Assembly (NCBI RefSeq): GCF_003545715.1
Contig: NZ_QVNU01000001.1
Location: 1,231,962 to 1,295,961, forward strand
Source: Taibaiella koreensis
GTDB lineage: Bacteria > Bacteroidota > Bacteroidia > Chitinophagales > Chitinophagaceae
Direction of reading: 5' to 3'
Length of the DNA stretch: 64,000 bases
The first letter of the stretch is position 1; every line of letters begins with the position of its first letter. Made by a program: the position numbers and the translations under genes. Shown here in pieces: positions 8,093 to 49,810 of this stretch. Under the pieces are notes generated by a model. The model did no database searches. It was not told the origin of the DNA and saw only the letters and a list, made by a program, of their open reading frames with translations.

Positions 8093-9641
8093 TTTTTACA
8101 AATTTCAAGCATTGCATTTTTTGTCCCTCCTTAAGCGTTAGGTTATAAATGCCATCAGGCAAGAAGGCGATATTCAGCTGGGACGATGACCTGCTGACAG
8201 GGCCGGAACTTAAAATTTGCCCGGCGATATTGGTAATGGTATACCCGCCATCACCGATACCCGTTACATGAAGTACGTCGTGCGCCGGATTAGGATAGAG
8301 CGTGCAACCCGTTAAGCGCCGGGCTCCTTCAATTTCCGTGGGCTTATAGCCGGTAATGTCGGGCGTCTCTTTGTACCAGAGATTGCCTACGTTGTCGAAC
8401 CATGCGGTGAGGAGGGCATTGCCGCGATTACTGCTGCTGCTCATAGCAAAAGGTACTTTCCCGGGAAGAAAGGGCGTGATCGGGTTGCTGTTGACCTGGT
8501 AAAAGGTCGAGGGTACGGTAATGGCGCCGGTGGCAAAATCGACCGGCTGCGTTACAAATATATTGTTGTTAACCAGATTCCAGCCAATGGAATAATTTTT
8601 ATTGTTGAAGCCTGTGCCGATATTCCCTACACCCGCAGCGATCGCCGTTAAAAAGTTCTCCGATGAGCTGAAAGGAGCGGAGCAATTATAGCTGCCGGAA
8701 TTGTTGAACATCCAGGTTTGTTTTACCGTACCATTTATTTTTGCGGCGACAACAGTCCAGGGAATATTGGGATTGAAAGGGGAGTAATCTACTGCCATGG
8801 CTTCAATGCGGGGGAAATGAAACGTGCCTGTGGCTAAAGAAAAGCCGCTTACTGTTCCTGAAGCGCAATTCAGGGAGGCAAAGTCAAGCGTATTGTTGCC
8901 GAGATTGCCGATAACGAGATAGGCCATGTCTACACCGGCAGCAATGCTGTAGGAGGCAGCTACGTCGGATAAAGTATTGTTGGTTCCCGAGCTTATCAGA
9001 TAAGGGCCGGATAAGCCTGCCGGATTAGCGATTTCGCCATAGGCGGCATAAACAACACTGCCTAAACCTCCTGCCTGGCTCCAGGATACAACGCAGCGAT
9101 GCATGATAGGAATACCCTGTGCGATATCGGCAAACATATCTATGTGCGGCGACTGGTCCAATGTCGGCGTGGTGGATAGCTGCACCGAAGCTGCAGGTGT
9201 ATAGGTCATGGCGCTACCGACACCATCTACATAATAAGTGTTGAGATACACACTGGTGTTCCGCAAAAAAACAACAGCAATGATACAATCGTGCGTCAGG
9301 GTAATATCATCGGCAATAACAATGTCGGCAAATGAAGCATTGGTGATCGCGGGTATATTGATTGCATTGCCGGCAAAGTCGATAGCGCTTATCCTCGCAC
9401 CCGTAGGGCTGTTCCAGGCAAAGGCTTTGATATTTCCTGATGGCGCCGGGAATTTATCGATGAACAACATGTCGCAGTTAACGCTGGGCAGATTAATGTT
9501 GGCCGTAGCGCTCAGGAACTGGTCGGGATTGGAAGGTGTGACGATCGTGGTCTGTGCCTGTAGCAGTCGGGGCGTTAGGGCAAGGATGGTTGCGCTGCAC
9601 AAGAGCAGCTTCCGGAAAAAGTTCTGGTATTGATTCAGCAT
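8088..9641 (-). CDS. secreted protein with a T9SS type-A C-terminal sorting domain (Por secretion system CTD)
   Basis: N-terminal signal peptide and a C-terminal …LYPNPAHDVLHVTG…YNLTLKEGQKMQCLKFVKK matching the TIGR04183-style CTD. Confidence 0.82.
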   Translation of the reverse strand: MLNQYQNFFRKLLLCSATILALTPRLLQAQTTIVTPSNPDQFLSATANINLPSVNCDMLFIDKFPAPSGNIKAFAWNSPTGARISAIDFAGNAINIPAITNASFADIVIADDITLTHDCIIAVVFLRNTSVYLNTYYVDGVGSAMTYTPAASVQLSTTPTLDQSPHIDMFADIAQGIPIMHRCVVSWSQAGGLGSVVYAAYGEIANPAGLSGPYLISSGTNNTLSDVAASYSIAAGVDMAYLVIGNLGNNTLDFASLNCASGTVSGFSLATGTFHFPRIEAMAVDYSPFNPNIPWTVVAAKINGTVKQTWMFNNSGSYNCSAPFSSSENFLTAIAAGVGNIGTGFNNKNYSIGWNLVNNNIFVTQPVDFATGAITVPSTFYQVNSNPITPFLPGKVPFAMSSSSNRGNALLTAWFDNVGNLWYKETPDITGYKPTEIEGARRLTGCTLYPNPAHDVLHVTGIGDGGYTITNIAGQILSSGPVSRSSSQLNIAFLPDGIYNLTLKEGQKMQCLKFVKK

Positions 9642-9818: not shown

Positions 9819-11915
9819 TTACCGGATCAATGAAAGCGCTTCCTTTTGCGTATATATTTTGTTGTCGCTGCAAGTGTATTGAATATAGTACATGTAGGTA
9901 CCCGTAGCTGCGGGCTCTCCGTCTGTATAGCTGCCATCCCATCCCTTGGGTAAGTTGGTATTGTTATAGACCTGGTTGCCCCAGCGGTCAAAGATCCGGA
10001 ATTGGGTCAATGTTTGGCCGGGCTTTAGCTCGGGCCTGAAGTAATCATTACGGCTGTCATGGTTAGGGGAAAAGGCGTTAGGGATAAAGATAGTACAGCA
10101 GGGTTCTGTAAGTAGTATTAAGCTGTCCTTTCCCATGCAGCCGTAAGCATTCAGCGTGGTGAGCACAACCCGGGTGGTTTTTTGATCGAAAAGACCTGTG
10201 ACCCCGGACTGGTTGGCGCCGGAAAGGGCGAAGACATGTTCCGGTTCCCAATGATAGGTGTATTCCTGTCCGCCGGTTGCGGTCAGGGATACAGTATCGC
10301 CGGTGCATATGGGGCCTCGCCGCCAGCTGATAGCTGCTTCGGGATTATTGTGCAGGGTGGCGGTGACCACATCTGACGAATCGATGCATTGTTCGCTGTT
10401 CCGGGCATACAGCCAGTAGTCACCCGGAAGATCCACCATAAGCCCGGCGCCGGTAGCGGCGGGTATGGGAGCGTCGTTCCGGTACCATTGGTAATCGGTG
10501 CCAGCTACCGCGGGAACGACGCGAAGCTCACCGGATTGCCCGGGACAAAGATCGAGGCCGGAAGTGTTCAATGCAAGCTCAAATGTTTTTTGCTGTGTCC
10601 TGATCCTTACAGAATCGGTAAGCACGCAATCGTTTTGTCCGGGATTAGGCAAGGTAACAGTAAGTCGGAAGGTCGTATCGCCTGGTATGCTGAATGTGGG
10701 CGAAAGCGTATTGCCTCCTGAAACAATGAGCCCTGCCGGTGCCCAGCTATAGTTGGGCGCTGCAGCTGAAGACATATTGCTAACGATGCCCTGAAGGTTG
10801 CCCGGATAAGGGATACATCCGGTTACCATTTGATCGGGACCCGCATCGACTGCCGGTGGCGCTACGATTCTGAAGGTATCTGTAATGACGGGTGTACAGG
10901 CCGGATCGCCTGCCGATGTAATGACGATTACCGCATCCCCGCCGCCATTGGCCGTAAAAGCAGGGCCGGTACCTGATATCGTCACACTGCCGCTAAGCAC
11001 AGTATGCTGAAAAGGAGCATTGCCGCTGGAGGTAAGTAGCATACCAGCTGCCGGATCGCAACGGAACAGCAGGTGACTTTTGTGGGCATCGACACCACCG
11101 ATCCCGCTGCAGCTGGCAAAATCGCCTGTCCAGGTGGGGAACAGAGGGGAAACGATGGGGGTTACGGCTACGGTGCCGGCGCCTATATATCCCGAATAGG
11201 TCAATAGTCCGGGTACATCAAAATAAAGGCTATCGCCTACGATAGCAAATGAATTGTTGCCACCGAAGCCGGCAGGCAAGGGCAGGCCGGTAATGTCCCA
11301 CTGCTGCAGCAATGTGCCGGCCGGGCTATACTTACGTAGCCATGCATCCTGCGCCGGGTACGGCTTCAATACATAAAAATTGCCGGCGCAATCTGCGCTG
11401 ATATCTAGGGTACCGGTAACGCTTCCGTCGAGCCAATTGAGTACCGATACCACAAACACCGCGTTCCCGGTACCGTTGTACCGGTATACATCGCCGTCGT
11501 TGCTGATGCTGTAAATAAAGCCACCACCGGCCCCAAGGCCAAAACCGGGACCTGGTCCGGCCGTATGCCCCGTACCCACCCAGGCGCTGCCATCCCAATA
11601 GGATATTTCTCCATAAAGCAAGCCTGCGCCCGATGCCGTATAAAAAGTGGGAGAAGGGGCCAACGGATTATTGAGGTTGGGACTTACCGCCAAAGAGCCC
11701 GGTACAGGGATATGGATGGGGTAGGGATTTGCAGCCGATAGCGGCGCTGCAGGATTGAAGGCGAAAAGAGAGTTGCCGCTGAAAGGCTGCATTGTGGCGA
11801 TATAAAGAAGCTGGCTGTCGCAAGTGATCTGCTGACTGTGAGCCGCTTTTGCATTGCAAAGAATAACAGCAATAAAAATTGCGGGGAGATAGGATACGAG
11901 GGTTCTTTTGTTCAT
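9819..11915 (-). CDS. T9SS type-B cargo (gliding motility-associated C-terminal domain protein), large Gly-rich adhesin-like protein
   Basis: Signal peptide plus a C-terminal …IPNAFSPNHDSRNDYFRP…FRIFDRWGNQVY…GWDGSY… (CHU_C / type-B CTD). Confidence 0.82.
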   Translation of the reverse strand: MNKRTLVSYLPAIFIAVILCNAKAAHSQQITCDSQLLYIATMQPFSGNSLFAFNPAAPLSAANPYPIHIPVPGSLAVSPNLNNPLAPSPTFYTASGAGLLYGEISYWDGSAWVGTGHTAGPGPGFGLGAGGGFIYSISNDGDVYRYNGTGNAVFVVSVLNWLDGSVTGTLDISADCAGNFYVLKPYPAQDAWLRKYSPAGTLLQQWDITGLPLPAGFGGNNSFAIVGDSLYFDVPGLLTYSGYIGAGTVAVTPIVSPLFPTWTGDFASCSGIGGVDAHKSHLLFRCDPAAGMLLTSSGNAPFQHTVLSGSVTISGTGPAFTANGGGDAVIVITSAGDPACTPVITDTFRIVAPPAVDAGPDQMVTGCIPYPGNLQGIVSNMSSAAAPNYSWAPAGLIVSGGNTLSPTFSIPGDTTFRLTVTLPNPGQNDCVLTDSVRIRTQQKTFELALNTSGLDLCPGQSGELRVVPAVAGTDYQWYRNDAPIPAATGAGLMVDLPGDYWLYARNSEQCIDSSDVVTATLHNNPEAAISWRRGPICTGDTVSLTATGGQEYTYHWEPEHVFALSGANQSGVTGLFDQKTTRVVLTTLNAYGCMGKDSLILLTEPCCTIFIPNAFSPNHDSRNDYFRPELKPGQTLTQFRIFDRWGNQVYNNTNLPKGWDGSYTDGEPAATGTYMYYIQYTCSDNKIYTQKEALSLIR

Positions 11916-20190: not shown

Positions 20191-20916
20191 TTACAGGAGA
20201 TTGAGCCGCTCATAGACCTGCTTTTTGAACGTTTTACCTATAGGTAGCCACACACCATTGGCCAAAAGGCATTGCTCCTTTTCATTAATTGTCTCCACAT
20301 AGCGGAAATTAACGGCATAAGTACGGTGTATCTGCAATACGCCACCGGCGGGAATGCGTGTCATAAGCTCTGTAAGCGACAGCCGCACCGAGGCTTTCTC
20401 CCGCTGTATGGTATGCAGCGTGACATAATTCTTGACGTCGGCTTCCAGGTAAGTAATATCGGCCAGCGCGATGCGTCTGAGTTTGCTACCAGTACGCACA
20501 AATACATGATCCTGCTCCGTTTTTAACTCCGCTACGGGTGCCGCCGGTGTCAACGCCAGTAGCAACGCGGCTTGCAGGGCGGCCTTACCAATGGGTTTGA
20601 CCAGGTACGATTTTGCCGCCACGGCGCTGAGGGCTTCTTCGATCACTTTGTTGTTGATCTGTGCCGTGGTAAAAATGATCCGGGTATCGGGCTGCAGGCG
20701 TTGTAGCTGACTTGCCAGCATAATGCCATTGTTGCGCCCCTGCAGGTCAATATCCATCAGCACTACACCAGGCTTCAGGCGCTCGATGTCGGCCATAGCG
20801 GCGAATGGCTCTTGTTGCGATCCCGCTATGCCGTAACCCAGCTCTTCCAGCAGCATCAGCAAGTGATCCAGGTGCAGCGGCTCATCTTCTACGATATAAA
20901 TCCCTTTATTTGTCAT
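20191..20916 (-). CDS. LytR/AlgR-family response regulator (REC + LytTR DNA-binding domain)
   Basis: N-terminal receiver (IVEDEP…LMDIDL) and a C-terminal LytTR region (…ITYLEADVKNYVTLHT…). It overlaps the upstream kinase gene by 4 bp. Confidence 0.88.
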   Translation of the reverse strand: MTNKGIYIVEDEPLHLDHLLMLLEELGYGIAGSQQEPFAAMADIERLKPGVVLMDIDLQGRNNGIMLASQLQRLQPDTRIIFTTAQINNKVIEEALSAVAAKSYLVKPIGKAALQAALLLALTPAAPVAELKTEQDHVFVRTGSKLRRIALADITYLEADVKNYVTLHTIQREKASVRLSLTELMTRIPAGGVLQIHRTYAVNFRYVETINEKEQCLLANGVWLPIGKTFKKQVYERLNLL

Positions 20917-23180
20917 TCCTTATGGGTTATGGTTGCCCGATGCAGCGGAAAGTGTACGTTGACCGTGGTGCCGCTTTCCGGGCTGCTCGTCATGATTATC
21001 CGTCCCTGGTTCAGTTTTGTGAATTGACGCACCAGCGCGAGGCCGAGGCCTATGCCCTTTTCACGGCTGCTTTCCCCCGCGCTTTCTTCGGAAGCGATAA
21101 GATCCAGGTCAGGGGCAATACGGGCAGGCATGCCGGGGCCCGTATCCCGGACACGAAACAACAGCTCCCGGTCTTGCTCATGAAGCGAAATGGTCACTAC
21201 ACCACCTTTTGGGGTAAACTTAAGCGCATTGGCGATAAGGTTGCGGCAGATCAGTAAAAAGCTGCCCCGGTCGGTTACCAATGTCAGGCCTGCCGGCAAT
21301 GCTTCGATCAACCGGATCTGCTTCACGGCTGCTGTGGCCTGAAATACGGAAAGGAGTTCCCTTAGCTCCAATGATGGATCTATAGGTTCTGGTTGCAAGG
21401 TATAGCCCTTTAGCTGGGTCGTAGACCAGTAAAGCAGGTTGTCGAGTAAGTAGGACAGGCGCGTTGCGTTTTCCTGGAGTGCAAAAGCCGTATCAGTGAC
21501 CTTGTCGTAGCGTTCTTTCTGCATTTGGTATTGCATGAGCTTTCCGGCTTGCTGCAAAGGTGCTACGAGACTACGCAGGTCGTGCGAAATGATCGAAAAA
21601 AGCCTTGTTTTGACCTGGTTCAGCTCCTGCAGCTCGGCATTTTGCAGGGCCACCAACTGCCGCTGCCGGCGAACCCTGATGTTGGCCCTGATGCTGATGA
21701 AGAGCAGCAGCGCGATGATGGCGGCAACAGAAAGCGCCAGCAGTTGCCTTTGCCGGCTGCGTTTCAGCTCCTGTGCCCCGAGCAGGCGTTCCTGGGTCAT
21801 GCGCGCTATCGTTTGTTCCTTTCTGCTACTCTCGTAGCGGGTCTCCAGCTCGGCGATCTGCCGGTGTATTTCCTGCCGGTATAGGGAATCGTTGAGTGCA
21901 TGATAACGCCGGAAATGCTTCAGTGCGCTGGCGGCATCACCCTTTTGCCGGTAAGCATCGACATAGGTCTTCTCGATCCAGCCGGCAAGCTCAAGCTCCT
22001 GCAGCCGGTTATTGATCGCTTTGCTGCTATCAAGATAACGTAGGGCTGGTTCCGGTAGCTTTTCTGCCAGAGATAGCTGGGCTAGCGCTTTATACGCAAT
22101 GGCCTGTCCCCTTGTATAGCCTTCTTTTTCCCAGTCACTGAGCGCAGCCACGTAGTATTTACCGGCAGTCAGGTGATCTCTGTCGCCAAAGAATGCGGCG
22201 TCGCCCAGGCTCTTCCTCAGCGCTCCGGTATACATCGTGGTACCTTCTACCGTCTTTATCTGTTTGCTGAGCACAATCCCTTCAAGCGCCAGGGGCTTGA
22301 TCTCTCCGTAATGTCCGATCTCCTCCAGGTAGTCACAATAGACAGCGATCGCGATTAGCAGATCGGGCTTACTCTTCAGCTTCCTGCCCAGCGCGATGGC
22401 CCTGCCGGCATAGCGACCTGCCAGATCGGGCTTATTCCAGGTGAGGTACAGGTGTACCAGGTTGCCAAGGGTTGGGATCATGTGTGCCTCATCGTGCTGC
22501 AACTCTTTGAGGCGAAGTGACTCCAGGTAATAGGTTGTCGCATTTTTATAGTCATTCCTGTCTTTGTAGACCATAGCCAGGTTGTTCAGTCCCACATGCG
22601 TACGGAAGGTATCTTTCTGGCCTTTTGCATAATGGACGGCGTCGCTGTAGTAATGCTCTGCCTGAAGGTGATCGCCCGCCTCACTGTAAAGCGATCCCAT
22701 ATCGTTGAAATACTGGAACTGGTAGTCCTTTCGCTGCAGCTGCCGGGCCAGCGCATAGCCTTTCCTGTACCAGGCACGGGCTTTTTCAAAATCCTTTTTA
22801 CGGCTATGCACGCCGGCGGCAAAGTAATAAAGGTCGAGCACCGATCCCGGCAATCGCTTGTCTGTGGCCAGCTGCAGCGCTTCGTTGAAAATACGGTCTG
22901 CTTGCGCGGCATCATTTTTCCGGTAATGGAAATCATAGAGAAGCGCCATAGCATCCAGCTCGCTGGTGGTTGCGTTCTGCCGGTGTGTATATTGCCGGGC
23001 CTCGCCGGCGATCACAATAGCGCTATCCCAATCGGGTTCCAGGCTGAGCGCCCATTCCACGTAAACATCCATTTTGGCGGTAGGCCCCAAAGCCTTGTCC
23101 AGCTTCCCCGGATAGTCCTGCTGTTGCGCCAGGGCGGCAAGGCACGTCAGGGCAAGCAGTACGGTAAAACGAGCGCGCAT
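20913..23180 (-). CDS. sensor histidine kinase with a periplasmic/extracytoplasmic TPR-repeat domain
   Basis: Signal peptide (MRARFTVLLALTCLAALA), ~450 aa of TPR-like repeats, one TM helix, a HisKA (FSIISHDLRS) and an HATPase_c. I chose the start at 23180; the longer ORF to 23252 has no signal peptide. Confidence 0.82.
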   Translation of the reverse strand: MRARFTVLLALTCLAALAQQQDYPGKLDKALGPTAKMDVYVEWALSLEPDWDSAIVIAGEARQYTHRQNATTSELDAMALLYDFHYRKNDAAQADRIFNEALQLATDKRLPGSVLDLYYFAAGVHSRKKDFEKARAWYRKGYALARQLQRKDYQFQYFNDMGSLYSEAGDHLQAEHYYSDAVHYAKGQKDTFRTHVGLNNLAMVYKDRNDYKNATTYYLESLRLKELQHDEAHMIPTLGNLVHLYLTWNKPDLAGRYAGRAIALGRKLKSKPDLLIAIAVYCDYLEEIGHYGEIKPLALEGIVLSKQIKTVEGTTMYTGALRKSLGDAAFFGDRDHLTAGKYYVAALSDWEKEGYTRGQAIAYKALAQLSLAEKLPEPALRYLDSSKAINNRLQELELAGWIEKTYVDAYRQKGDAASALKHFRRYHALNDSLYRQEIHRQIAELETRYESSRKEQTIARMTQERLLGAQELKRSRQRQLLALSVAAIIALLLFISIRANIRVRRQRQLVALQNAELQELNQVKTRLFSIISHDLRSLVAPLQQAGKLMQYQMQKERYDKVTDTAFALQENATRLSYLLDNLLYWSTTQLKGYTLQPEPIDPSLELRELLSVFQATAAVKQIRLIEALPAGLTLVTDRGSFLLICRNLIANALKFTPKGGVVTISLHEQDRELLFRVRDTGPGMPARIAPDLDLIASEESAGESSREKGIGLGLALVRQFTKLNQGRIIMTSSPESGTTVNVHFPLHRATITHKE

Positions 23181-23406
23181 AGACCGGTTATAGGAAAGAG
23201 AGAATGCTGCAAATATAAAGGTATTGATCATTTGTCCACGCGGTGCAAGCATTCATCCTCACGAAATGACCCTTCGGCCACATGGTCTTACCGGAGGCGA
23301 TGGGGCGGGCCTATTTTTGATCGAAGCTACAATGCAATACTCCATAGCAACAGTGGCCCCTTTATCCCGTATCGTAGATCAGAACAAGAACTCAAAAACA
23401 TTTTTT

Positions 23407-23670
23407 ATGAAAAAGAAACAAAACAATGGCAAGCTCTTTCTAAACAAAAAGAAAATCACCGGGCTTTCTGATCCTCAAAGCACTTTTGGTGGTGGAATGA
23501 GCGGAATTACATTTATAGCATCCTGCGCAGGATCCTGTGCTTCCGATTGTATTTGCCCCACAGATCGTTGCCAGGTACATAGTATCGACAGTTGTCCTCC
23601 CCGGCCTTCCTTTATTCCGGCAAATTGCAATATTTTTTCTCTGGACAATTGCAGCCTTACGACGCCTTAA
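23407..23670 (+). CDS. GG-motif (double-glycine) leader precursor peptide A, 87 aa, with an 8-Cys Cys/Pro-rich core
   Basis: Internal start of ORF 23224..23670. Leader MKKKQNNGKLFLNKKKITGLSDPQSTFGGG resembles the Bacteroidetes GG-leader family. The core contains CPPRPSF. Confidence 0.6.
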   Translation: MKKKQNNGKLFLNKKKITGLSDPQSTFGGGMSGITFIASCAGSCASDCICPTDRCQVHSIDSCPPRPSFIPANCNIFSLDNCSLTTP

Positions 23671-23793
23671 GTCTGTTCAGGGCAGTTGTTATCAATAGAA
23701 ATAGCATCGACCTGCGTTGTACAGCCGGTCACAACAACACCTTTATTTGCCCCCACGCTACGTTAACCAAATCAACCCAAAGACAAAACCAAT

Positions 23794-24015
23794 ATGAAAA
23801 AGAAACAAAGCAATGGCCGTCTTGCCCTGAACAAGAAATGGATTACGGAGCTCTCCCATCCACAGCATGTTGCCGGTGGTGAATATTTAGATACAAGGGT
23901 ATCCTGTATTTCCCGTTGCCTGTGCCCTGTATCGGGTACCTGCCCCAGACCCTCTTTTGAGCAGCGTTGTCCTCCCTGTCCGATCAATACAATGACTTGT
24001 CCCACCCTGCCTTAA
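23794..24015 (+). CDS. GG-motif leader precursor peptide B, 73 aa, with a 7-Cys core
   Basis: Leader MKKKQSNGRLALNKKWITELSHPQHVAGG is paralogous to peptide A. The core has CPRPSF and ends in CPTLP. Confidence 0.6.
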   Translation: MKKKQSNGRLALNKKWITELSHPQHVAGGEYLDTRVSCISRCLCPVSGTCPRPSFEQRCPPCPINTMTCPTLP

Positions 24016-24047
24016 GCCGGGATTTTCTAACTTAGATAAGCATCCGT

Positions 24048-24254
24048 ATGAAAAAGCATGCGCCAAGAACAAGGCTTAGCCTGAAAAAGGTTGTCGTAAC
24101 GCCTTTAAAAGATCTGCATAAGACGGGGGGCTATCCTACACGGGAACCCTCGCTGTATTCCTGTATGTCGGAATGCAATTGTCCACGGCCCACTTATTGG
24201 ACCGTTTACTGTTGCGGCGGGCAAGGTACCTTCGTTTGCCCACACCTGCCTTAG
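24048..24254 (+). CDS. GG-motif leader precursor peptide C, 68 aa, with a 6-Cys core
   Basis: Leader MKKHAPRTRLSLKKVVVTPLKDLHKTGG. The core has CPRPTYW and ends in CPHLP. Confidence 0.55.
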   Translation: MKKHAPRTRLSLKKVVVTPLKDLHKTGGYPTREPSLYSCMSECNCPRPTYWTVYCCGGQGTFVCPHLP

Positions 24255-24278
24255 GCGCAACGAACCACATTTATTGGG

Positions 24279-24306
24279 GGCGATGTCACACGGCATCGCC
24301 TTTTTT
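24279..24306 (+). terminator. rho-independent terminator closing the three-peptide gene array
   Basis: Stem ggcgatg/catcgcc with loop tcacacgg, followed by TTTTTT, 25 bp after the peptide C stop. Confidence 0.7.
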
Positions 24307-24445
24307 GTAGCAGCATCTTGCAGCCACCAGGATTAATAGCCTGCCTTGCCGGTTTGGTCAGCAAAAACAGGTGCTTGGTCTAAAAAGATAAAAGCATGTC
24401 GGGCAGAATCACCATTTTTGCCTGCCGGACCAATCCGGCGATACC

Positions 24446-25555
24446 ATGTTGAAAAAGACCGGCAATACCATACTGAAACTATTAACGCATAGGTTGGCGC
24501 TTAACTTGTATGTGTGGTTCTTCTTTATCGATACCGTTTGGAATAATAATCATAGCAACGCTTCGGTGCCGCGTCACGACGGCCACGTCCTGCACATTGT
24601 GCTGATGCACCTGGTATGGGTGGCCATGATCTATGGCAATACCATGATCTATATACCCAGGCTGCTCATCCGGCGCAAATACGGCTGGTATCTCCTGGTT
24701 TTACTGGCACATGCCTTATTGTTTTCTCTCATCATTGGCTGGTACAGCGAATGGCTGATCGCTGCCTTCCCCGGTACCCGAAAGCTGGACTATATCGTGA
24801 TCAATATTGCCCAGCGCTCCGATATGGTCTCTTACCGGCAGTACCTGGTCAATGTGTTGCTGGGGGCGGTGGGCGATACCCTTATCCTGTTCACCATAGG
24901 GCGGTTGATGCAATACTTTTTCGTAGAACGCCGGCGCAATGAGCTGCTGGAAAAAAAGCAGCTTGAATCGGAGCTGATGCTGCTCCGCTCGCAGATCAAT
25001 CCGCACTTTCTGTTCAATGTGCTCAACAGCATTTATTCGCTCTCGCTTAAAAAATCGGATGAGGCTCCGGGCGTCATCCTGAAGTTGTCCGATATCCTGC
25101 GGTATATGCTCTATGAATCGCGCCAGGACTATGTGCCGCTCGACAAAGAGCTGCAGATGCTGCGCGACTATATTGCGATCGAGCAAATAAGGATCAGCAG
25201 TAAAGATGCCATTAGCCTGGATATCGGCGCCGACACGGGCAGCGGAAAGATAGCCCCGGCACTACTGATCGCGTTTGTGGAAAACGCGGTGAAGCATGGT
25301 CTGGATTCCCGGATGGCCGATGCCTTTGTCCGTATCAGCATCAGGGTAGCCCCGGGGCAGCTGCTGGAGTTCCAATGCGTCAACAATTATCTGCCCCGTA
25401 GCGCCGGTATGCATACCAACAAGACGGGCGGCATAGGGCTGGAAAATGTGAAGAAACGGCTGGAGTTGCTGTATCCGGGAAAACACCATCTTACCATCGA
25501 CAACGATAATACCGTCTTCCAAGTGAAGCTCACCTTAAAACTAAGTACCGAATGA
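24446..25555 (+). CDS. LytS/YehU-family sensor histidine kinase (4-5 TM sensor + His_kinase domain)
   Basis: Polytopic N-terminus, then …QINPHFLFNVLNSIYSL… (PF06580-type) and a C-terminal ATPase. Its stop overlaps the downstream regulator start (ATGA). Confidence 0.82.
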   Translation: MLKKTGNTILKLLTHRLALNLYVWFFFIDTVWNNNHSNASVPRHDGHVLHIVLMHLVWVAMIYGNTMIYIPRLLIRRKYGWYLLVLLAHALLFSLIIGWYSEWLIAAFPGTRKLDYIVINIAQRSDMVSYRQYLVNVLLGAVGDTLILFTIGRLMQYFFVERRRNELLEKKQLESELMLLRSQINPHFLFNVLNSIYSLSLKKSDEAPGVILKLSDILRYMLYESRQDYVPLDKELQMLRDYIAIEQIRISSKDAISLDIGADTGSGKIAPALLIAFVENAVKHGLDSRMADAFVRISIRVAPGQLLEFQCVNNYLPRSAGMHTNKTGGIGLENVKKRLELLYPGKHHLTIDNDNTVFQVKLTLKLSTE

Positions 25556-26247
25556 CCTGCCTTATCATCGACGACGAAATACTGGCCCAGGATGTGATCG
25601 AACATTACCTGTCGCGTACCGAGGGCCTGCAGCTGGTAGCCAAATGCAGCAATGCCCTGGAGGCCTTTGCCCTGTTGAGCAAAGAAGAGATCGATCTCAT
25701 TTTCCTGGACATACAAATGCCGGAGATCAACGGTCTCGAATTTGTCAAAATACTGAAACATCCTCCCAAGATCATTCTCACAACAGCCTATACGGAATAT
25801 GCGCTGGACGGCTACGAGCTCAATGTGGTCGATTATTTGCTGAAACCGGTATCTTTCGAACGCTTTCTGAAAGCCGTAGATAAGGCGCGCATGACAAGAT
25901 CTGCGCCGGCTGAAAAAATCCCGGCCCCATCATCCCAGGATATTTTTGTCAAATGCGACGGGAAGCTGGTACGTGTACGGGCACAGGATATCCGCTACGT
26001 GGAAGGGCTTAAAAATTATCTTATCCTACATACCACAGCCCGGAAAATGGTTGTGCACGGCACCATGAGCAATATGGAAGAGGAACTGGGCGTCTTCGGA
26101 CACTTTGTAAGGATACACAAATCTTACCTGGTCAACAAGCAATACATTACCGAGATCAGCGGCAACATGATCAGGATCGAGCAGGCAGAACTGCCCATCG
26201 GCGGCGTATACAAGCCCGAGCTGCTAAAATTGCTCAAAGTGATCTGA
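25552..26247 (+). CDS. LytTR-family response regulator
   Basis: REC domain (LIIDDE…FLDIQMP) plus a LytTR domain (…IRYVEGLKNYLILHT…). It is translationally coupled to the kinase. Confidence 0.88.
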   Translation: MTCLIIDDEILAQDVIEHYLSRTEGLQLVAKCSNALEAFALLSKEEIDLIFLDIQMPEINGLEFVKILKHPPKIILTTAYTEYALDGYELNVVDYLLKPVSFERFLKAVDKARMTRSAPAEKIPAPSSQDIFVKCDGKLVRVRAQDIRYVEGLKNYLILHTTARKMVVHGTMSNMEEELGVFGHFVRIHKSYLVNKQYITEISGNMIRIEQAELPIGGVYKPELLKLLKVI

Positions 26248-31004: not shown

Positions 31005-32996
31005 ATGCTGCCCGTTTTTGGCGGCGGCAGGACTATGCCATTTGATCATCTAAATGCCATGATACAGTTCATGAATGAGCATCGCTTGCTCGTAACCCTT
31101 GTTGTCCTTTTTATTTTCTGTTTGTTGCTCCACAAAGTCATTTTGCGCGTACTGCTGGGAATGGTCATCGTACCGGAAGACCGCCTGGGGCTTGTTACCA
31201 AGAAATTTGTGCTCTTTGGTGCGCATCGTGCGCTACCCGATGGCAAGATTATCGCCACCTACGGCGAACCAGGCTTCCAGGCCCGTACCCTGGCCCCGGG
31301 ACTTTACTGGGGTATGTGGATATGGCAATACCACATCGACATGCATCCTTTTACCATTATACCTGAAGGAAAGATAGGTTTGGTGCTGGCTAACGACGGG
31401 CAGGAAATTCCTACCGGATCGATACTGGCCCGTAAGGTCGATAGCGACAACTTCCAGGATGCCGAGAAGTTCCTCAACAATGGCGGTCAGAAGGGCCGGC
31501 AGACGGCTTATATTACCGCCGGTACCTACCGTATCAATACTATGGCTTTTACGGTGACCATAGCCGATATGGTGATCATCCATGAGAACAGGGTGGGAGT
31601 GGTAACCACATTGGATGGGCTCCCCATCAGCAAAGACCAGATCGCTGGTGTCCGGATCGAAGGGCACAATAATTTCCAGGACTTCGACGCCTTCCTGCTA
31701 CAAGGTGGTAACCGTGGCTTGCAGCCGCACATTATTCTGGCGGGGTCTTACAACATCAATCCCTGGGCGGTGCAGATTGAAGAAAGCCTGATGACAGATG
31801 TGCCCATTGGCTATGTAGGCGTCGTGATCTCTTATATCGGGGACGATGGACAGGATGTGACCGGGGAATCGTTCAAGCATGGCAATATCGTGGCCAAAGG
31901 CTATAGGGGTGTATGGCTGGAACCGCTTGGCCCCGGCAAATACCCACTCAATAAATATACCATGAAGCTGGAGCTGGTACCCACCACCAATCTGGTGCTC
32001 AACTGGGCCAACGCCCGCAGCGAGGCGCATGCCCTGGACAAGAACCTTTCTACAATTACCGTGCGCTCCAAAGATGGCTTCCCCTTTAACCTCGACGTAT
32101 CCCAGATCATCCATATCCCGGCCAACGAAGCACCCAAAGTGATCGGCCGCTTCGGTAGCATGACCAACCTGGTAAGCCAGGTGCTGGAGCCCACAATAGG
32201 CAACTACTTTCGTAACTCGGCCCAGGACAGCGATGTGATCAGCTTCCTCAGCACCCGTAAGGAACGCCAGGAAAGCGCCAGGGAGCATATTCGTACCGTG
32301 CTGGAAGAGTATAATGTGAATGCCGTAGATACGCTTATCGGCGATATTACGCCTCCCGAAGCCCTGATGAAGACCCTTACCGACCGTAAGATAGCAGAAG
32401 AAGAGCAAAAGACCTACCAGACACAGCGCATGGCCCAGGAGCAACGGCAGGGTATGGAAAAAGAAACGGCCATTGCCGATATGCAAAAGGAAATCGTAAA
32501 AGCGCAGCAAAGCGTTGAGATATCCCAGCGCACAGCAGATGCTACGGTAAAAAAAGCGGAAGGTGATGCCACCAGCCTCAAGCTGCAGGTAGAAGCGGAA
32601 GCCCAGGCAACAAAAATGCGCGCTATCGCCGAAGCGGAAGCTACGAAAGCCCGTGCCGGGGCGCAGGCTGAAGCCACCAAGCTGAATGCCGTTTCCGATG
32701 CCGAACGGATATCCCGTACCGGCCTGGCCGAAGCGGAAAAGATCATGGCTATCGGTAAAAGCACCGCAGAGGCTTATGAGCTGCAAGTAAAAGCAATGGG
32801 CGGTGATAACTTTACCCGCTATAAAGTGACCGAGGAAATAGGTAAAAGCGGTATCAAAGTGATCCCCGATATGCTGATCACGGGCAACAGCGGCGGCGAA
32901 GGAAGCCTGAGCGGTCTGCTGGGTCTGCAGCTGATGAAAATGATGGGCGCCGATCCTGCGCAGAAGGGCAACGACGAAAACGGCGCAGCCAATTAA
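31005..32996 (+). CDS. flotillin-family (SPFH / band-7) membrane protein
   Basis: N-terminal TM helix, an SPFH domain and a long Ala/Glu-rich coiled-coil (…EAEAQATKMRAIAEAEATKARAGAQAEATK…). The start may be at 31035 or 31059. Confidence 0.82.
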   Translation: MLPVFGGGRTMPFDHLNAMIQFMNEHRLLVTLVVLFIFCLLLHKVILRVLLGMVIVPEDRLGLVTKKFVLFGAHRALPDGKIIATYGEPGFQARTLAPGLYWGMWIWQYHIDMHPFTIIPEGKIGLVLANDGQEIPTGSILARKVDSDNFQDAEKFLNNGGQKGRQTAYITAGTYRINTMAFTVTIADMVIIHENRVGVVTTLDGLPISKDQIAGVRIEGHNNFQDFDAFLLQGGNRGLQPHIILAGSYNINPWAVQIEESLMTDVPIGYVGVVISYIGDDGQDVTGESFKHGNIVAKGYRGVWLEPLGPGKYPLNKYTMKLELVPTTNLVLNWANARSEAHALDKNLSTITVRSKDGFPFNLDVSQIIHIPANEAPKVIGRFGSMTNLVSQVLEPTIGNYFRNSAQDSDVISFLSTRKERQESAREHIRTVLEEYNVNAVDTLIGDITPPEALMKTLTDRKIAEEEQKTYQTQRMAQEQRQGMEKETAIADMQKEIVKAQQSVEISQRTADATVKKAEGDATSLKLQVEAEAQATKMRAIAEAEATKARAGAQAEATKLNAVSDAERISRTGLAEAEKIMAIGKSTAEAYELQVKAMGGDNFTRYKVTEEIGKSGIKVIPDMLITGNSGGEGSLSGLLGLQLMKMMGADPAQKGNDENGAAN

Positions 32997-33028
32997 TACG
33001 ATTAATGCAAGCATAAAGCAAGAGGCCG

Positions 33029-46213: not shown

Positions 46214-46366
46214 TTAATTCTGGCAATAGCGGCATACCGAAGGGCCGGCGGGTCCGAAGCGGCTGTGGTTAAAAGCGCCATTGTGGCCACCGGCTACTTT
46301 ATCCAATGTTGCAATGCGTAGCTTGGTAAGCGAAAGGCTTTTCCTTGTGCTGGTCTTCTTTTTCAT
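46214..46366 (-). CDS. GG-motif leader precursor peptide (50 aa) with a short CxxC core
   Basis: MKKKTSTRKSLSLTKLRIATLDKVAGG-HNGAFNHSRFGPAGPSVCRYCQN. The leader matches the Bacteroidetes GG-leader pattern (L-x-L-x-K-x-x-I-A-x-L…GG). It is an internal start of ORF 46214..46447. Confidence 0.45.
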   Translation of the reverse strand: MKKKTSTRKSLSLTKLRIATLDKVAGGHNGAFNHSRFGPAGPSVCRYCQN

Positions 46367-47611: not shown

Positions 47612-49810
47612 TTGGACCAGAAAGTTTTTTTCATTACTCCGCCATTTACCCAGCTCAATACGCCTTACCCGGCTACTGCTTACCTCAAGGGTTTTCTCAA
47701 TACCCTGGGTGTAGCGGCAGGGCAGGCAGACATGGGTATGGAGGTTATCTTGTCCCTGTTCTCACCGGCCGGGCTCAAGCGGCTGTTTGCCGCAGTGGCC
47801 CAAAGCGGTGTGCGGCTGTCGGCCAACGGACGCCGTATCGTGCAGCTATCAGATGTTTATTGCAGCACGATCGGCCCGGTTATCGATTTCCTGCAGGACA
47901 AAAATCCCACGCTGGCCCATTCGATCTGTACCGGCAATTACCTGCCCGAAGCCTCCCGCTTTAATCAACTGGCCGACCTGGAATGGGCTTTCGGCGCCAT
48001 GGGCATACGCGACAAGGCCAGGCACCTGGCCACGCTGTACCTGGAAGATCTTTCCGACCTGATCGTTGAAGCAGTGGATCCCCATTTCGGCTTTAGCCGC
48101 TATGCCGAAAGGCTGGGCCGTTCTGCGGCTTCTTTCGATGCGCTGGATGCAGCCTTGCGTGGTCCGCTTTCCTTTATTGACGAGCTGCTGCTGGAATTGC
48201 TGGCGACGCGTATTGTGACTGAAAAACCTACTTTGGTAGCGCTTTCGGTGCCCTTTCCCGGAAACCTGTACAGCGCTTTTAAATGTGGGCAATGGCTCAA
48301 GGAGCATTACCCCGAAATGAAAGTATGCCTGGGTGGTGGCTATGCCAATACAGAGTTGCGGGGCATCAGGGATCCCAGGGTATTCGACTATGTCGATTTT
48401 ATAACCCTGGACGATGGCGAGGCGCCCCTGGTCAATCTGCTGGAATATCTTGAAGGAAAGCGACCCGTTGATTTCCTCAAGCGGACCTTTGTTCGCCTGG
48501 GAGATGAGGTGGTTTACTGCAATGCTTCATTACAGCCCGATTACAAACAAATAGATGTGGGTACGCCCGACTACTCCGGTTTGCGGCTGGACGAATACCT
48601 GTCGGTGATCGAGATCGCCAATCCCATGCACCGGCTCTGGAGCGACGGACGCTGGAACAAGCTGACCCTTGCACACGGCTGCTATTGGGGAAAATGTACT
48701 TTTTGTGATATATCGCTCGATTATATCCGCACTTACGAAGCGACTACCGCGGTAGTGCTGGTTGATCGTATGGAGACGATCATGCGGCAGACCGGGCAGA
48801 ACGGCTTCCATTTCGTAGACGAAGCAGCGCCGCCGGCATTGATGCGTGAAGTGGCGCTGGAGTTGCTGCGCCGCAAGCTCAGTGTGACCTGGTGGACCAA
48901 TATCCGCTTTGAGAAGAGCTTTACCGCCGACCTGTGCCGGCTCCTGGCTGCCTCGGGCTGCATTGCGGTCTCCGGCGGACTAGAGGTCGCCTCCGACCGC
49001 TTGCTCAACCTCATTAAAAAAGGCGTTACGGTAGCCCAGGTGGCCAAAGTAGCCGCTAATTTTACCGAGGCCGGTATTATGGTGCATGCCTACCTGATGT
49101 ATGGTTTTCCCACGCAAACGGCCCAGGAAACCATAGATGCGCTGGAGGTCGTGCGTCAGCTGTTTGCCCTCGGTATCGTACAATCCGGTTTCTGGCACCA
49201 GTTTGCGATGACGGCCCATAGCCCCGTAGGAATGGATCCCGCCGCATTTAAGGTAAAGAAAGTAACGGAGGCCGTCGGCGCCTTTGCCCACAACGATATG
49301 GAGCACACCGATCCTACGGGGACCGATCATGAGCGCTTTAGTGCGGGACTGCGCAAATCCCTGTTTAATTATATGCATGGGATCTGCTTCGATTTTCCCT
49401 TGCAGGAATGGTTCGACTTTAAAGTGCCGCGCACGGGCGTAGAACCCGATTATATCGAGCATGAGTTGTTGCACTACCCCGAAAAGGAGCTGAAACCGGG
49501 TGCGAAGATCGTTTGGCTGGGCGACAAGCCCGTGCTGCAACGGCAGCAGCGGCAGAAGAAAGGAAAAAGCTTTACGGTAACACAGCTGGTGGTGTATACC
49601 CGCCGGGAAGAGCTTAAGATCGCGGTAGACGAGCAGGATGGCGCCTGGCTGGAGACACGGCTACCACTGCTGCAGCCTGTTGGGGAAAAGGTATATAGCT
49701 ATGCTGTGCTGGCGGAGGACTACCAGGCAGCGACCGGCCGGGATTTCGAATCGTTGTGGCAGGGTCCGGTCGTAGACGAGCTGCGCCAGCTGGGGCTGCT
49801 TGCCCTGTAA
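47612..49810 (+). CDS. B12-binding domain-containing radical SAM protein with a ~250 aa C-terminal extension
   Basis: N-terminal cobalamin-binding-like Rossmann domain, a Cys cluster AHGCYWGKCTFCD (CX4CX2C) and a radical-SAM core (…FHFVDEA…, …GGLEVASDR…). Confidence 0.78.
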   Translation: MDQKVFFITPPFTQLNTPYPATAYLKGFLNTLGVAAGQADMGMEVILSLFSPAGLKRLFAAVAQSGVRLSANGRRIVQLSDVYCSTIGPVIDFLQDKNPTLAHSICTGNYLPEASRFNQLADLEWAFGAMGIRDKARHLATLYLEDLSDLIVEAVDPHFGFSRYAERLGRSAASFDALDAALRGPLSFIDELLLELLATRIVTEKPTLVALSVPFPGNLYSAFKCGQWLKEHYPEMKVCLGGGYANTELRGIRDPRVFDYVDFITLDDGEAPLVNLLEYLEGKRPVDFLKRTFVRLGDEVVYCNASLQPDYKQIDVGTPDYSGLRLDEYLSVIEIANPMHRLWSDGRWNKLTLAHGCYWGKCTFCDISLDYIRTYEATTAVVLVDRMETIMRQTGQNGFHFVDEAAPPALMREVALELLRRKLSVTWWTNIRFEKSFTADLCRLLAASGCIAVSGGLEVASDRLLNLIKKGVTVAQVAKVAANFTEAGIMVHAYLMYGFPTQTAQETIDALEVVRQLFALGIVQSGFWHQFAMTAHSPVGMDPAAFKVKKVTEAVGAFAHNDMEHTDPTGTDHERFSAGLRKSLFNYMHGICFDFPLQEWFDFKVPRTGVEPDYIEHELLHYPEKELKPGAKIVWLGDKPVLQRQQRQKKGKSFTVTQLVVYTRREELKIAVDEQDGAWLETRLPLLQPVGEKVYSYAVLAEDYQAATGRDFESLWQGPVVDELRQLGLLAL

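What the first reader, a model, noticed from the sequence alone, without database searches (positions are those of the whole stretch)
23407..24254. Conserved CP(P)RP[ST][FY] and C-terminal CP[TH]LP motifs define a Cys-rich core family
Beyond the shared leader, all three cores carry a C-P-(P)-R-P-S/T-F/Y element (SCPPRPSF, TCPRPSF, NCPRPTYW). Two of them end in CPTLP and CPHLP. Cysteine spacing is irregular but always dense (8, 7 and 6 Cys). A conserved motif across otherwise divergent cores argues for real paralogous genes under selection rather than chance ORFs, and it suggests a shared fold or a shared modification or recognition site. I do not recognise this motif from characterised lanthipeptides, sactipeptides or class II bacteriocins.
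Basis: seen in the sequence. Interest (0 to 1): 0.6.

Follow-up and report, generated by a model that had tools for sequence, protein, structure and literature searches.

The report
Orphan lanthipeptide-type precursor peptide trio
Three small tandem genes in Taibaiella koreensis encode real, conserved, cysteine-rich precursor peptides with the leader typical of Bacteroidota class I lanthipeptides, but no modifying enzyme lies nearby, so their final chemistry is unproven.

Summary
Three + strand ORFs (23407-23670, 23794-24015, 24048-24254) share a leader and carry CP(P)RP[ST][FY]; two end in CP[TH]LP; Cys counts are 8, 7 and 6. These motifs occur nowhere else in the window's six-frame translation.

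The genes are real. The p1 ortholog in a metagenome is 76% identical in protein although synonymous sites are saturated.

They are not an unrecognised class. The leader is the Bacteroidota class I lanthipeptide leader (LxLxKx5L...GG; NCBIfam NF038153), and p2 is already RefSeq WP_162902867.1, "class I lanthipeptide".

p1 once ended like the others. A 92-nt insertion cut off its 3' end, which survives out of frame in the p1-p2 spacer.

No LanB, LanC or C39 transporter lies in the 64-kb window or within about 10 kb at nine related loci. The peptides instead sit between two LytTR two-component systems.

Best reading: orphan lanthipeptide-type precursors modified in trans (confidence 0.5). New member of a known kind; moderate interest.

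The parts
23407..23670 (+). p1, an 87-aa precursor peptide: leader residues 1-30 (LxLxKx5L, GGG) and a 57-aa core with 8 Cys
   Evidence: ORF. NF038153 leader hit of 22.3 bits against a cutoff of 22. 76% identical to metagenomic P0002, with saturated synonymous sites.
23794..24015 (+). p2, a 73-aa precursor peptide with 7 Cys, ending in CPTLP. It is RefSeq WP_162902867.1, 'class I lanthipeptide'.
   Evidence: NF038153 hit of 24.5 bits. Exact match to P0001.
24048..24254 (+). p3, a 68-aa precursor peptide with 6 Cys, ending in CPHLP. Its exact sequence is absent from the public protein collection.
   Evidence: NF038153 hit of 13.3 bits, below cutoff, but the leader has LxLxKx5L and GG. Family HMM E-value 1.9e-19. 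Exact look-up negative.
23533..23556 (+). S-C-x-S-x-C-x-C motif of p1 (SCASDCIC). The equivalents are 23902-23925 in p2 (SCISRCLC) and 24159-24182 in p3 (SCMSECNC).
   Evidence: These are invariant or near-invariant columns in the 20-sequence family alignment. The motif is unique to the three ORFs in the window.
23593..23613 (+). CPPRPSF motif of p1. The equivalents are 23941-23958 in p2 (CPRPSF) and 24180-24197 in p3 (CPRPTY).
   Evidence: It aligns with the family-wide P-x-P-[ST] block.
23998..24012 (+). C-terminal CPTLP of p2. The equivalent in p3 is CPHLP at 24237-24251.
   Evidence: P0002 also ends in CPTLP. It aligns with the family's C-[PQ]-x(1-3)-P end.
23611..23702 (+). 92-nt insertion in p1 relative to the L001 ortholog, starting right after the Ser68 codon. 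It is not a multiple of three. It supplies the present tail FIPANCNIFSLDNCSLTTP and the stop codon, and it contains an internal 24-nt-spaced repeat.
   Evidence: DNA alignment with L001. Repeat D8. No other copy in the window or the fetched loci.
23703..23766 (+). Relic of the ancestral 3' end of p1, reading SIDLRCTAGHNNTFICPH(A)TL in another frame. Compared with the ends of p3 and P0002 it has lost its stop codon in that frame.
   Evidence: Repeat D7 matches the end of p3. My reading of the sequence suggests that one extra G plus a CCT>CGT change explains CPHATL instead of CPHLP-stop.
23275..23319 (+). Candidate promoter: the block CGGCCACAT-N27-CTATTTTTG, conserved with L001. TAnnTTTG is the Bacteroidetes -7 consensus (from my own knowledge). 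It lies 87 nt upstream of the p1 ATG.
   Evidence: No TAnnTTTG lies before p2 or p3, so one p1-p2-p3 transcript is inferred, not shown.
24276..24307 (+). Intrinsic-terminator-like hairpin plus a T-run, directly after p3
   Evidence: Fold of -23.1 kcal/mol, z = -4.26, with 0 of 200 shuffles as stable.
20913..23252 (-). TPR-containing histidine kinase, divergent from p1. Its likely true start is 23180 (MRARF...).
   Evidence: Pfam TPR_12 and HATPase_c. 51% identical to the syntenic L001 kinase.
20191..20916 (-). LytTR-family response regulator, in an operon with the TPR kinase
   Evidence: Pfam Response_reg and LytTR. 64% identical to the L001 copy.
24446..25555 (+). LytS-type histidine kinase (PF06580), downstream of the terminator
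   Evidence: 67% identical to the syntenic L001 kinase.
25552..26247 (+). Second LytTR-family response regulator
   Evidence: Pfam Response_reg and LytTR.

Best explanation
p1, p2 and p3 are ribosomally made precursor peptides of the Bacteroidota class I lanthipeptide type.

Proposed mechanism. A roughly 28-30-residue leader (MKK...LxLxKx5L...GG) would guide a LanB-type dehydratase and a LanC-type cyclase encoded elsewhere in the Taibaiella koreensis genome. The conserved Ser/Thr residues would be dehydrated: the two invariant Ser of S-C-x-S-x-C-x-C, the S/T of P-R-P-[ST], and the Thr of T-[FM]-x-C-P-[TH]-L-P. The Cys that follow them would add to form (methyl)lanthionine rings. The prolines would shape those rings. 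The leader would be cut after Gly-Gly on export.

Origin. The three genes arose by local duplication, and p1 later acquired a new tail through a 92-nt insertion. They probably form one transcript, from a TAnnTTTG promoter at 23312 to the hairpin at 24276-24307.

Shown versus inferred. Shown here: the genes are real and under purifying selection, the leader type, the wider core family, and the orphan context. Inferred: dehydration, ring formation, action of the enzymes in trans, export and the operon structure.
For: Leader: NF038153 'class I lanthipeptide' hits at or above cutoff for p1 and p2. The wider family scores 25-37 bits. All three peptides have LxLxKx5L plus GG, the motif reported for Bacteroidetes class I LanAs (PMC7268733). 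RefSeq names p2 and relatives in T. koreensis, T. chishuiensis and T. helva 'class I lanthipeptide'.

Real genes: for p1 against P0002, pS is 0.76, pN is 0.22 and core dN/dS is about 0.14. The peptide is 76% identical while the flanking kinases are 51% and 67% identical.

Core chemistry: the invariant core columns in 20 sequences are 2 Ser and 2 Cys, with one more Cys nearly invariant. Several members have an odd Cys count (7 in p2, P0026, P0027, P0006 and P0032). In 16 of 20 cores, every Cys has at least as many Ser/Thr before it, usually with a margin of 0 or 1. The chance of this per peptide is 0.11-0.43.

No autonomous fold: AlphaFold2 gives pLDDT below 50 over the core, and there are no relatives in the PDB.

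Precedent: scattered precursors with a shared leader and variable cores are known from the prochlorosins (my own knowledge). C. pinensis has several LanB/LanC pairs in one genome (PMC9680876).
Against: No LanB, LanC, YcaO or C39-ABC transporter is encoded in the 64-kb window. All ORFs of at least 350 aa were scanned except one antisense ORF (31698-33014) judged spurious. None lies within about 10 kb of the family members at L001/2, L003/4, L005-7, L008/10, L009, L011, L012, L013 or L016.

I could not check whether Taibaiella genomes encode LanBC at all.

Four family members have one more Cys than available upstream Ser/Thr, so not every Cys can be in a conventional N-to-C thioether.

The same leader type also occurs on a fourth peptide in this window that lies next to a B12-radical SAM enzyme. 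The leader alone therefore does not prove LanBC chemistry.

p3's leader scores below the curated cutoff.
Confidence: 0.5

Rival explanations
1. The peptides are exported after Gly-Gly cleavage and are not enzymatically cross-linked. They act as disulfide-rich (or metal-binding) secreted peptides, for example bacteriocin-like toxins. The lanthipeptide name would then be an over-propagated, leader-only annotation.
For: High Cys density, with CxC and CC pairs. No modifying enzyme lies near any of 10 loci. The NCBIfam model covers only the leader. Some members have more Cys than upstream Ser/Thr.
Against: The Ser residues are as invariant as the Cys, which disulfides or metal binding do not require. 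Odd Cys counts occur in p2 and four relatives. AlphaFold2 finds no fold in the core, although the alignment is shallow. There is no C39 transporter nearby either.
Confidence: 0.17
2. They are precursors of a different RiPP chemistry that uses the same Bacteroidota leader. Examples are azole or thiopeptide-like products (YcaO plus split LanB), or radical-SAM cross-linked peptides, perhaps made by the B12-radical SAM enzyme 23 kb away.
For: The alternating Ser/Cys run (A-S-x-C-x-S-C-x-S-x-C-L-C) recalls thiopeptide and azole cores (my own knowledge). A fourth peptide with the same leader type lies 1.1 kb from a 732-aa B12-radical SAM. That enzyme's best NCBIfam hits include 'RiPP maturation radical SAM C-methyltransferase', at 85 bits, far below the cutoff. 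Walker et al. note LanB-elimination-like extra proteins of unknown role in Bacteroidetes clusters.
Against: There is no YcaO or SPASM radical SAM in the window. The B12-radical SAM has no homolog at any related locus. Cores of 40-60 residues are long for thiopeptides.
Confidence: 0.13
3. Whatever their chemistry, their role is signalling. They would be secreted peptide cues sensed by, or produced under the control of, the two flanking histidine kinase/LytTR systems, by analogy with Gram-positive GG-leader pheromone and bacteriocin circuits (Blp, Com, Pln) and lantibiotic autoinduction.
For: Kinase/LytTR pairs flank the peptides on both sides. This arrangement is kept in L001 although the kinases are only 51-67% identical and other genes have been inserted. 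An independent Chitinophaga array of about 10 leader peptides sits beside His_kinase, LytTR and an S41 peptidase. The T. helva member is followed by a TPR/HisKA_3 kinase.
Against: Five other loci have no adjacent two-component system. At L012 the only one lies about 6.5 kb away. Such genes are very dense here, with 4 kinases and 4 receiver-domain proteins in about 55 genes, so chance adjacency is not rare. No closely spaced direct repeats (LytTR-box-like) lie upstream of p1. The peptides are divergent from one system and separated from the other by a terminator.
Confidence: 0.15
4. The ORFs are decaying remnants with no present function.
For: p1 lost its ancestral C-terminus to a frame-breaking 92-nt insertion, and the relic is decaying. 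p1 and p3 are absent from the public protein collection. The family is very rare.
Against: All three frames are intact, and all keep the leader motifs and the invariant core residues. There is strong purifying selection. A conserved promoter block and a strong terminator bracket the genes.
Confidence: 0.05

Closest known systems
Bacteroidota class I lanthipeptide precursors (pinensins of Chitinophaga pinensis; Ped15.1/15.2 of Pedobacter lusitanus; NCBIfam NF038153 leader family)
   Same: Same phylum and, for the pinensins, the same family (Chitinophagaceae). Same leader architecture (LxLxKx5L, Gly-Gly end). Ser/Thr- and Cys-containing cores. RefSeq gives p2 this name.
   Different: Those precursors are described from clusters that encode LanB (or split LanB) and LanC. 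Here none lies in 64 kb or at nine related loci. The cores are unrelated, longer and far richer in Cys and Pro. No product has been isolated.
Prochlorosins (class II lanthipeptides of Prochlorococcus: many scattered ProcA genes and one ProcM) - from my own knowledge
   Same: A conserved leader with highly variable cores, multiple precursor genes per genome, and many of them unlinked to the synthetase. This matches p1-p3, P0018 on another contig, and the array of about 10 genes in L011.
   Different: The leader family (Nif11/NHLP), enzyme class (LanM) and phylum are all different. A single promiscuous enzyme in Taibaiella is only an inference.
Double-glycine-leader class II bacteriocins and pheromones with LytTR regulation (BlpC/BlpRH, ComC/ComDE, PlnA/PlnBCD) - from my own knowledge
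   Same: A short Lys-rich leader ending in Gly-Gly, small tandem peptide genes, and histidine kinase plus LytTR regulators as immediate neighbours.
   Different: The peptides are not co-operonic with the kinases. There is no C39-ABC exporter or immunity gene nearby and no LytTR-type repeats upstream. The only sequence link is a chance-level BlpC hit (E = 0.056) for one relative. This is a Gram-negative phylum in which no such circuit is known.
Thiopeptide and azole-peptide cores (for example thiocillin and GE2270) - from my own knowledge
   Same: Dense alternation of Ser and Cys in a short conserved run.
   Different: There is no YcaO or pyridine synthase nearby. The cores are 2-4 times longer, and the leader matches a lanthipeptide model.

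Membership tests
Class I lanthipeptide precursor (LanA), Bacteroidota leader type | N-terminal leader matching NCBIfam NF038153 at the curated cutoff (22 bits) | tested here: met
   p1 scores 22.3 bits and p2 scores 24.5 bits. p3 scores 13.3 bits, below the cutoff. Wider family members score 25-37 bits.
Class I lanthipeptide precursor (LanA), Bacteroidota leader type | LxLxKx5L leader motif and a Gly-Gly cleavage site (Walker et al. 2020) | tested here: met
   L10-x-L12-x-K14-x5-L20 is present in all three peptides. GG is at residues 28-30 (p1), 28-29 (p2) and 27-28 (p3).
Class I lanthipeptide precursor (LanA), Bacteroidota leader type | Core with Ser/Thr donors and Cys acceptors in a workable order | tested here: met
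   Ser/Thr against Cys is 13/8, 9/7 and 7/6. Every Cys has enough upstream Ser/Thr in p1-p3 and in 16 of 20 family cores. This evidence is only permissive.
Class I lanthipeptide precursor (LanA), Bacteroidota leader type | LanB dehydratase and LanC cyclase encoded with the precursor | tested here: not met
   None is in the 64-kb window or within about 10 kb at nine related loci.
Class I lanthipeptide precursor (LanA), Bacteroidota leader type | LanB/LanC present somewhere in the same genome | not testable with these tools
   The rest of the T. koreensis genome could not be read.
Class I lanthipeptide precursor (LanA), Bacteroidota leader type | Dehydrated residues and (methyl)lanthionine rings in the mature product | not testable with these tools
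   This needs mass spectrometry or NMR.
GG-leader peptide exported by a C39 peptidase-ABC transporter | C39-ABC transporter gene near the peptide | tested here: not met
   No such protein is in the window or the related loci. The only ABC protein seen is a soluble ABC-F type in L005.
Peptide pheromone / LytTR two-component circuit (Agr, Com, Blp, Pln type) | Peptide gene adjacent to a histidine kinase and a LytTR regulator | tested here: met
   This holds on both sides in the window and in L001, and on one side in L011. The background density of such genes is high.
Peptide pheromone / LytTR two-component circuit (Agr, Com, Blp, Pln type) | Paired direct repeats (LytTR boxes) in the peptide promoter | tested here: not met
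   No direct repeats within 35 nt lie in 23181-23406 or in the L001 and L011 upstream regions. Degenerate repeats could have been missed.
Peptide pheromone / LytTR two-component circuit (Agr, Com, Blp, Pln type) | Peptide co-transcribed with its kinase and regulator | tested here: not met
   The peptides are divergent from the TPR kinase operon. A strong terminator at 24276-24307 separates p3 from the downstream kinase.
SCIFF / ranthipeptide / sactipeptide | Adjacent radical SAM (SPASM) maturase | tested here: not met
   The only radical SAM in the window is a B12-binding type 23 kb away. No related locus has one.

The most novel reading that the evidence does not exclude
The LxLxKx5L-GG leader in Chitinophagaceae may not be tied to LanBC at all. 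These stand-alone Cys/Ser/Pro-rich peptides would then be either products of an undescribed maturation route or secreted peptide signals read by the neighbouring histidine kinase/LytTR systems. The second case would be the first peptide-based cell-cell signalling circuit in Bacteroidota.
Probability: 0.12. Interest if true: 0.75.

Novelty: new member of a known kind. Interest (0 to 1): 0.35.

Why it matters
If the peptides are matured in trans, Taibaiella would be a Bacteroidota counterpart of the prochlorosin system, with one enzyme set and many dispersed precursors. Cluster-anchored genome mining would miss such precursors by design, and the family's motif strings were absent from the part of one such survey's precursor list that is held as text (that file was cut). 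The conserved S-C-x-S-x-C-L-C, P-x-P-[ST] and C-P-x-L-P modules would then give an unusually Pro- and Cys-dense ring scaffold to characterise. The repeated position next to sensor kinases offers a testable lead on how these peptides are regulated or sensed. As it stands, however, this is a new core family within an already annotated class, not a new kind of system.

Tried and rejected
- Chance ORFs: rejected (leader HMM hits, selection analysis, homologs).
- Pfam on the three peptides: no hit.
- Profile search against the PDB: no hit.
- Rfam on 23100-24500: only chance-level hits. No tRNAs in the window.
- AlphaFold2 of p2 with an 18-sequence alignment: mean pLDDT 54.5, core below 50. No fold search was run because it would be meaningless.
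- First genome-collection scan, with the 4-peptide alignment: 81 pattern matches, none confirmed. The window's own genome was not found, so it is apparently absent or masked there.
- The 20-sequence alignment was too diverse to scan with.
- Second genome scan: only T. chishuiensis (two loci) and one Chitinophaga MAG.
- Metagenome scan: two short contigs.
- Two viral scans: nothing.
- Context look-ups for p2, P0006 and P0018: not on record. P0012 and P0016 lie on contigs too short to be useful.
- Searching for LanBC next to any relative: none found.
- LytTR-box-like repeats upstream of p1: none.
- The 92-nt insertion: no other copy found, so its source is unknown.
- Literature: nothing on Taibaiella lanthipeptides. 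The Walker 2020 and Nat Commun 2022 supplements contain neither the motif strings nor Taibaiella, but the files were cut when stored. The Bacteroidetes BGC survey gives 16 BGCs for T. koreensis without types.
- GC content dips only mildly (0.44-0.47) over the locus, so a foreign island is not indicated.
- One homolog search was left unused, because I had no reliable Bacteroidota LanB/LanC query sequence.
Full report
**What is there.** The interval holds three tandem + strand ORFs: p1 at 23407-23670 (87 aa), p2 at 23794-24015 (73 aa) and p3 at 24048-24254 (68 aa). I searched the six-frame translation of the whole window (95,943 residues). CP{1,2}RP[ST][FYI] occurs three times and CP[TH]LP twice, always in these ORFs. 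A third shared motif, S-C-x-S-x-C-x-C, also occurs three times and only here.

**Source organism.** p2 is identical to RefSeq WP_162902867.1, "class I lanthipeptide [Taibaiella koreensis]", on a 1.59-Mb contig. T. koreensis belongs to the Chitinophagaceae, phylum Bacteroidota. The exact sequences of p1 and p3 are not in the 15-billion-protein collection, so they appear to be unannotated.

**The genes are real.**
- The only close relative in 5.8 billion clustered proteins, and in an exhaustive profile search of 1.84 billion representatives, is P0002. It is an 88-aa metagenomic peptide.
- Its locus (L001) is syntenic with the window, although the flanking kinases are only 51% and 67% identical.
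- p1 and P0002 are 76% identical in protein. Their synonymous sites are saturated (pS 0.76) while pN is 0.22, and core dN/dS is about 0.14. For p1 against p2, dN/dS is about 0.15. This is purifying selection on the peptide sequence.
- A noncoding block, CGGCCACAT-N27-CTAYTTTTG, is conserved with L001 upstream of p1. It contains the Bacteroidetes-type -7 box TAnnTTTG (the consensus is from my own knowledge) at 23312-23319.
- A strong hairpin with a T-run follows p3 at 24276-24307 (-23.1 kcal/mol, z = -4.3).
- No such box precedes p2 or p3, so one p1-p2-p3 transcript is the simplest reading. This is inferred, not shown.

**The leader is a known type.** All three peptides start MKK and carry L10-x-L12-x-K14-x5-L20 followed by Gly-Gly. 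Walker et al. describe exactly this for Bacteroidetes class I LanAs, often with a C39 protease in the cluster (PMC7268733). p1 and p2 pass the curated cutoff of NCBIfam NF038153, "class I lanthipeptide" (22.3 and 24.5 bits against 22). p3 scores 13.3 bits. Pfam gives nothing.

**The cores belong to a wider, rare family.**
- The profile search returned 23 proteins with E <= 1e-3, and a second search with a 14-sequence alignment returned 16.
- About 20 of these proteins share one core plan. It runs (A)S-x-C-x-S-C-[MIVL]-S-[QE]-C-L-C, then a Pro-rich P-x-P-[ST] block, then (P)C-C-[PQ]-x-P.
- The invariant core columns are two Ser and two Cys.
- The window's SCASDCIC, SCISRCLC and SCMSECNC are local versions of the first block. 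CP[TH]LP is the local version of the terminal C-[PQ]-x(1-3)-P.
- Named members come from T. koreensis (a second locus, P0018), T. chishuiensis and T. helva, all called "class I lanthipeptide".
- Across 185,579 species genomes, the motif C[YH]SCMSQC found only T. chishuiensis (two loci) and one Chitinophaga MAG. Metagenome and viral scans added almost nothing.

**p1 has been rearranged.** Aligned with the L001 gene, p1 carries a 92-nt insertion (23611-23702) directly after the Ser of CPPRPS. The insertion is not a multiple of three. It supplies the present tail FIPANCNIFSLDNCSLTTP and the stop codon. The ancestral 3' end survives in another frame at 23703-23766 as SIDLRCTAGHNNTFICPH(A)TL. Compare SIDQRCITGQNSTFVCPTLP in P0002. 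By my reading, one extra base and one substitution have removed the relic's stop codon, so it is decaying. The insertion has no other copy in the data.

**Context.**
- I scanned every ORF of at least 350 aa in the window, apart from one antisense ORF (31698-33014) judged spurious, and most smaller ones. There is no LanB, LanC, YcaO or C39-ABC transporter.
- The same holds within about 10 kb of family members at L001/2, L003/4, L005-7, L008/10, L009, L011, L012 and L013, and of a leader-only relative at L016. The family consists of orphan precursors.
- In the window, the trio lies between two two-component systems. On one side is a divergent operon of a TPR histidine kinase and a LytTR regulator. 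On the other is a co-directional LytS-type kinase and LytTR regulator.
- L001 keeps this arrangement despite inserted genes.
- A Chitinophaga MAG has an array of about ten peptides with the same leader type and diverse cores. It sits beside His_kinase, LytTR and an S41 peptidase.
- The T. helva member is followed by a TPR/HisKA_3 kinase.
- Against reading too much into this: five loci have no adjacent two-component system, and at L012 the only one lies about 6.5 kb away. Such genes are dense here, with 4 kinases and 4 receiver-domain proteins in about 55 genes. No LytTR-box-like repeats lie upstream of p1.

**Most likely mechanism (confidence 0.5).** These are lanthipeptide-type precursors matured in trans. 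The argument rests on four points:
- the leader type;
- Ser residues that are as invariant as the Cys;
- odd Cys counts in p2 and four relatives;
- Ser/Thr that keep pace with the Cys from N- to C-terminus in 16 of 20 cores.

The last point is only permissive, because chance gives 0.11-0.43 per peptide and the sequences are related. AlphaFold2 finds no fold in the core (pLDDT below 50, shallow alignment), as expected for a RiPP substrate. That is inference.

**Weak points.** The enzymes were never seen. Four relatives have one Cys too many. A fourth peptide with the same leader type, at 46214-46366 (-), lies next to a B12-radical SAM enzyme, so the leader is not proof of LanBC chemistry.

**Rivals.**
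- Unmodified disulfide-rich or metal-binding secreted peptides (0.17).
- Another RiPP chemistry that uses the same leader (0.13).
- A signalling role tied to the flanking LytTR systems (0.15). This is a claim about function and can coexist with any of the chemistries.
- Decaying remnants (0.05).

**Comparison with known systems.** The closest known are the Bacteroidota class I lanthipeptides: the pinensins and Ped15.1/15.2. The leader features were tested and met. The clustered-LanBC feature was tested and not met. Genome-wide presence of LanBC and the actual chemistry could not be tested. In organisation the family resembles the prochlorosins (scattered precursors, shared leader, variable cores), but it is not a member of that family.

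**Verdict.** The finding is real, and the genes are conserved and selected. They belong to a class that public annotation already assigns, so this is a new core family of a known kind. The orphan context, and the repeated position next to sensor kinases, are the only mildly unexpected features. Interest 0.35.

Noticed in passing
window 46214-46366 (-) and 47612-49810 (+): A fourth small ORF has the same leader type: MKKKTSTRKSLSLTKLRIATLDKVAGG|HNGAFNHSRFGPAGPSVCRYCQN. It is RefSeq WP_162902868.1, 'hypothetical protein'. Two small membrane-protein ORFs separate it from a divergent 732-aa B12-binding radical SAM. That enzyme's best NCBIfam hits (PhpK family; RiPP maturation C-methyltransferase) are far below their cutoffs. 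A SAM methyltransferase lies at 50673-51404. This may be a separate RiPP locus.
   Followed up: partly
window 23407-23670 and 24048-24254: The exact p1 and p3 sequences are absent from the 15-billion-protein public collection, while p2 is present. Two of the three genes therefore seem to be missing from the public annotation.
   Followed up: yes
L011 5684-8501 and 12466-13024 (Chitinophaga sp. MAG, NZ_DATLKJ010000171.1): An array of about ten small ORFs with the same leader type and very different Ser/Thr/Cys cores. One is a member of the S-C-M-S-Q-C-L-C family. The array sits next to a LytTR regulator, a His_kinase, an S41 peptidase and an AraC regulator, and no LanBC lies in the 17.9 kb held.
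   Followed up: partly
L008 about 9400-9520 and 9880-10000 (T. chishuiensis): The two tandem family members each have a TAnnTTTG box about 120 nt upstream. They also share a conserved block of about 50 nt in the 5' untranslated region (ATGCTGAACAATC.TCCCGAGGCATTGCCCCG...AGAAAGGGA.GACC). This could be a regulatory RNA element or simply part of the duplication.
   Followed up: no
window 23674-23684 and 23823-23833: A perfect 11-nt inverted repeat (TGTTCAGGGCA / TGCCCTGAACA) links the sequence just after the p1 stop codon with the leader-coding part of p2. It may be chance, or a structure affecting p2 translation.
   Followed up: no
window 23180-23252 (-): The longest ORF of the TPR kinase starts at 23252. 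However, the alignment with the L001 ortholog and a signal-like MRARFTVLL... suggest a start at 23180. A TAnnTTTG box on the minus strand at 23217-23210 would then lie just upstream.
   Followed up: partly
window, whole: Two-component genes are unusually dense. There are four histidine kinases (20913, 24446, 58286, 62519) and four receiver-domain proteins (20191, 25552, 27705, 59157) in 64 kb. This weakens any argument from adjacency.
   Followed up: yes
L001 3391-3798 (+): In the metagenomic relative, a 135-aa lipoprotein-like ORF with no Pfam match lies between the conserved promoter block and the peptide gene. The window has no counterpart.
   Followed up: partly
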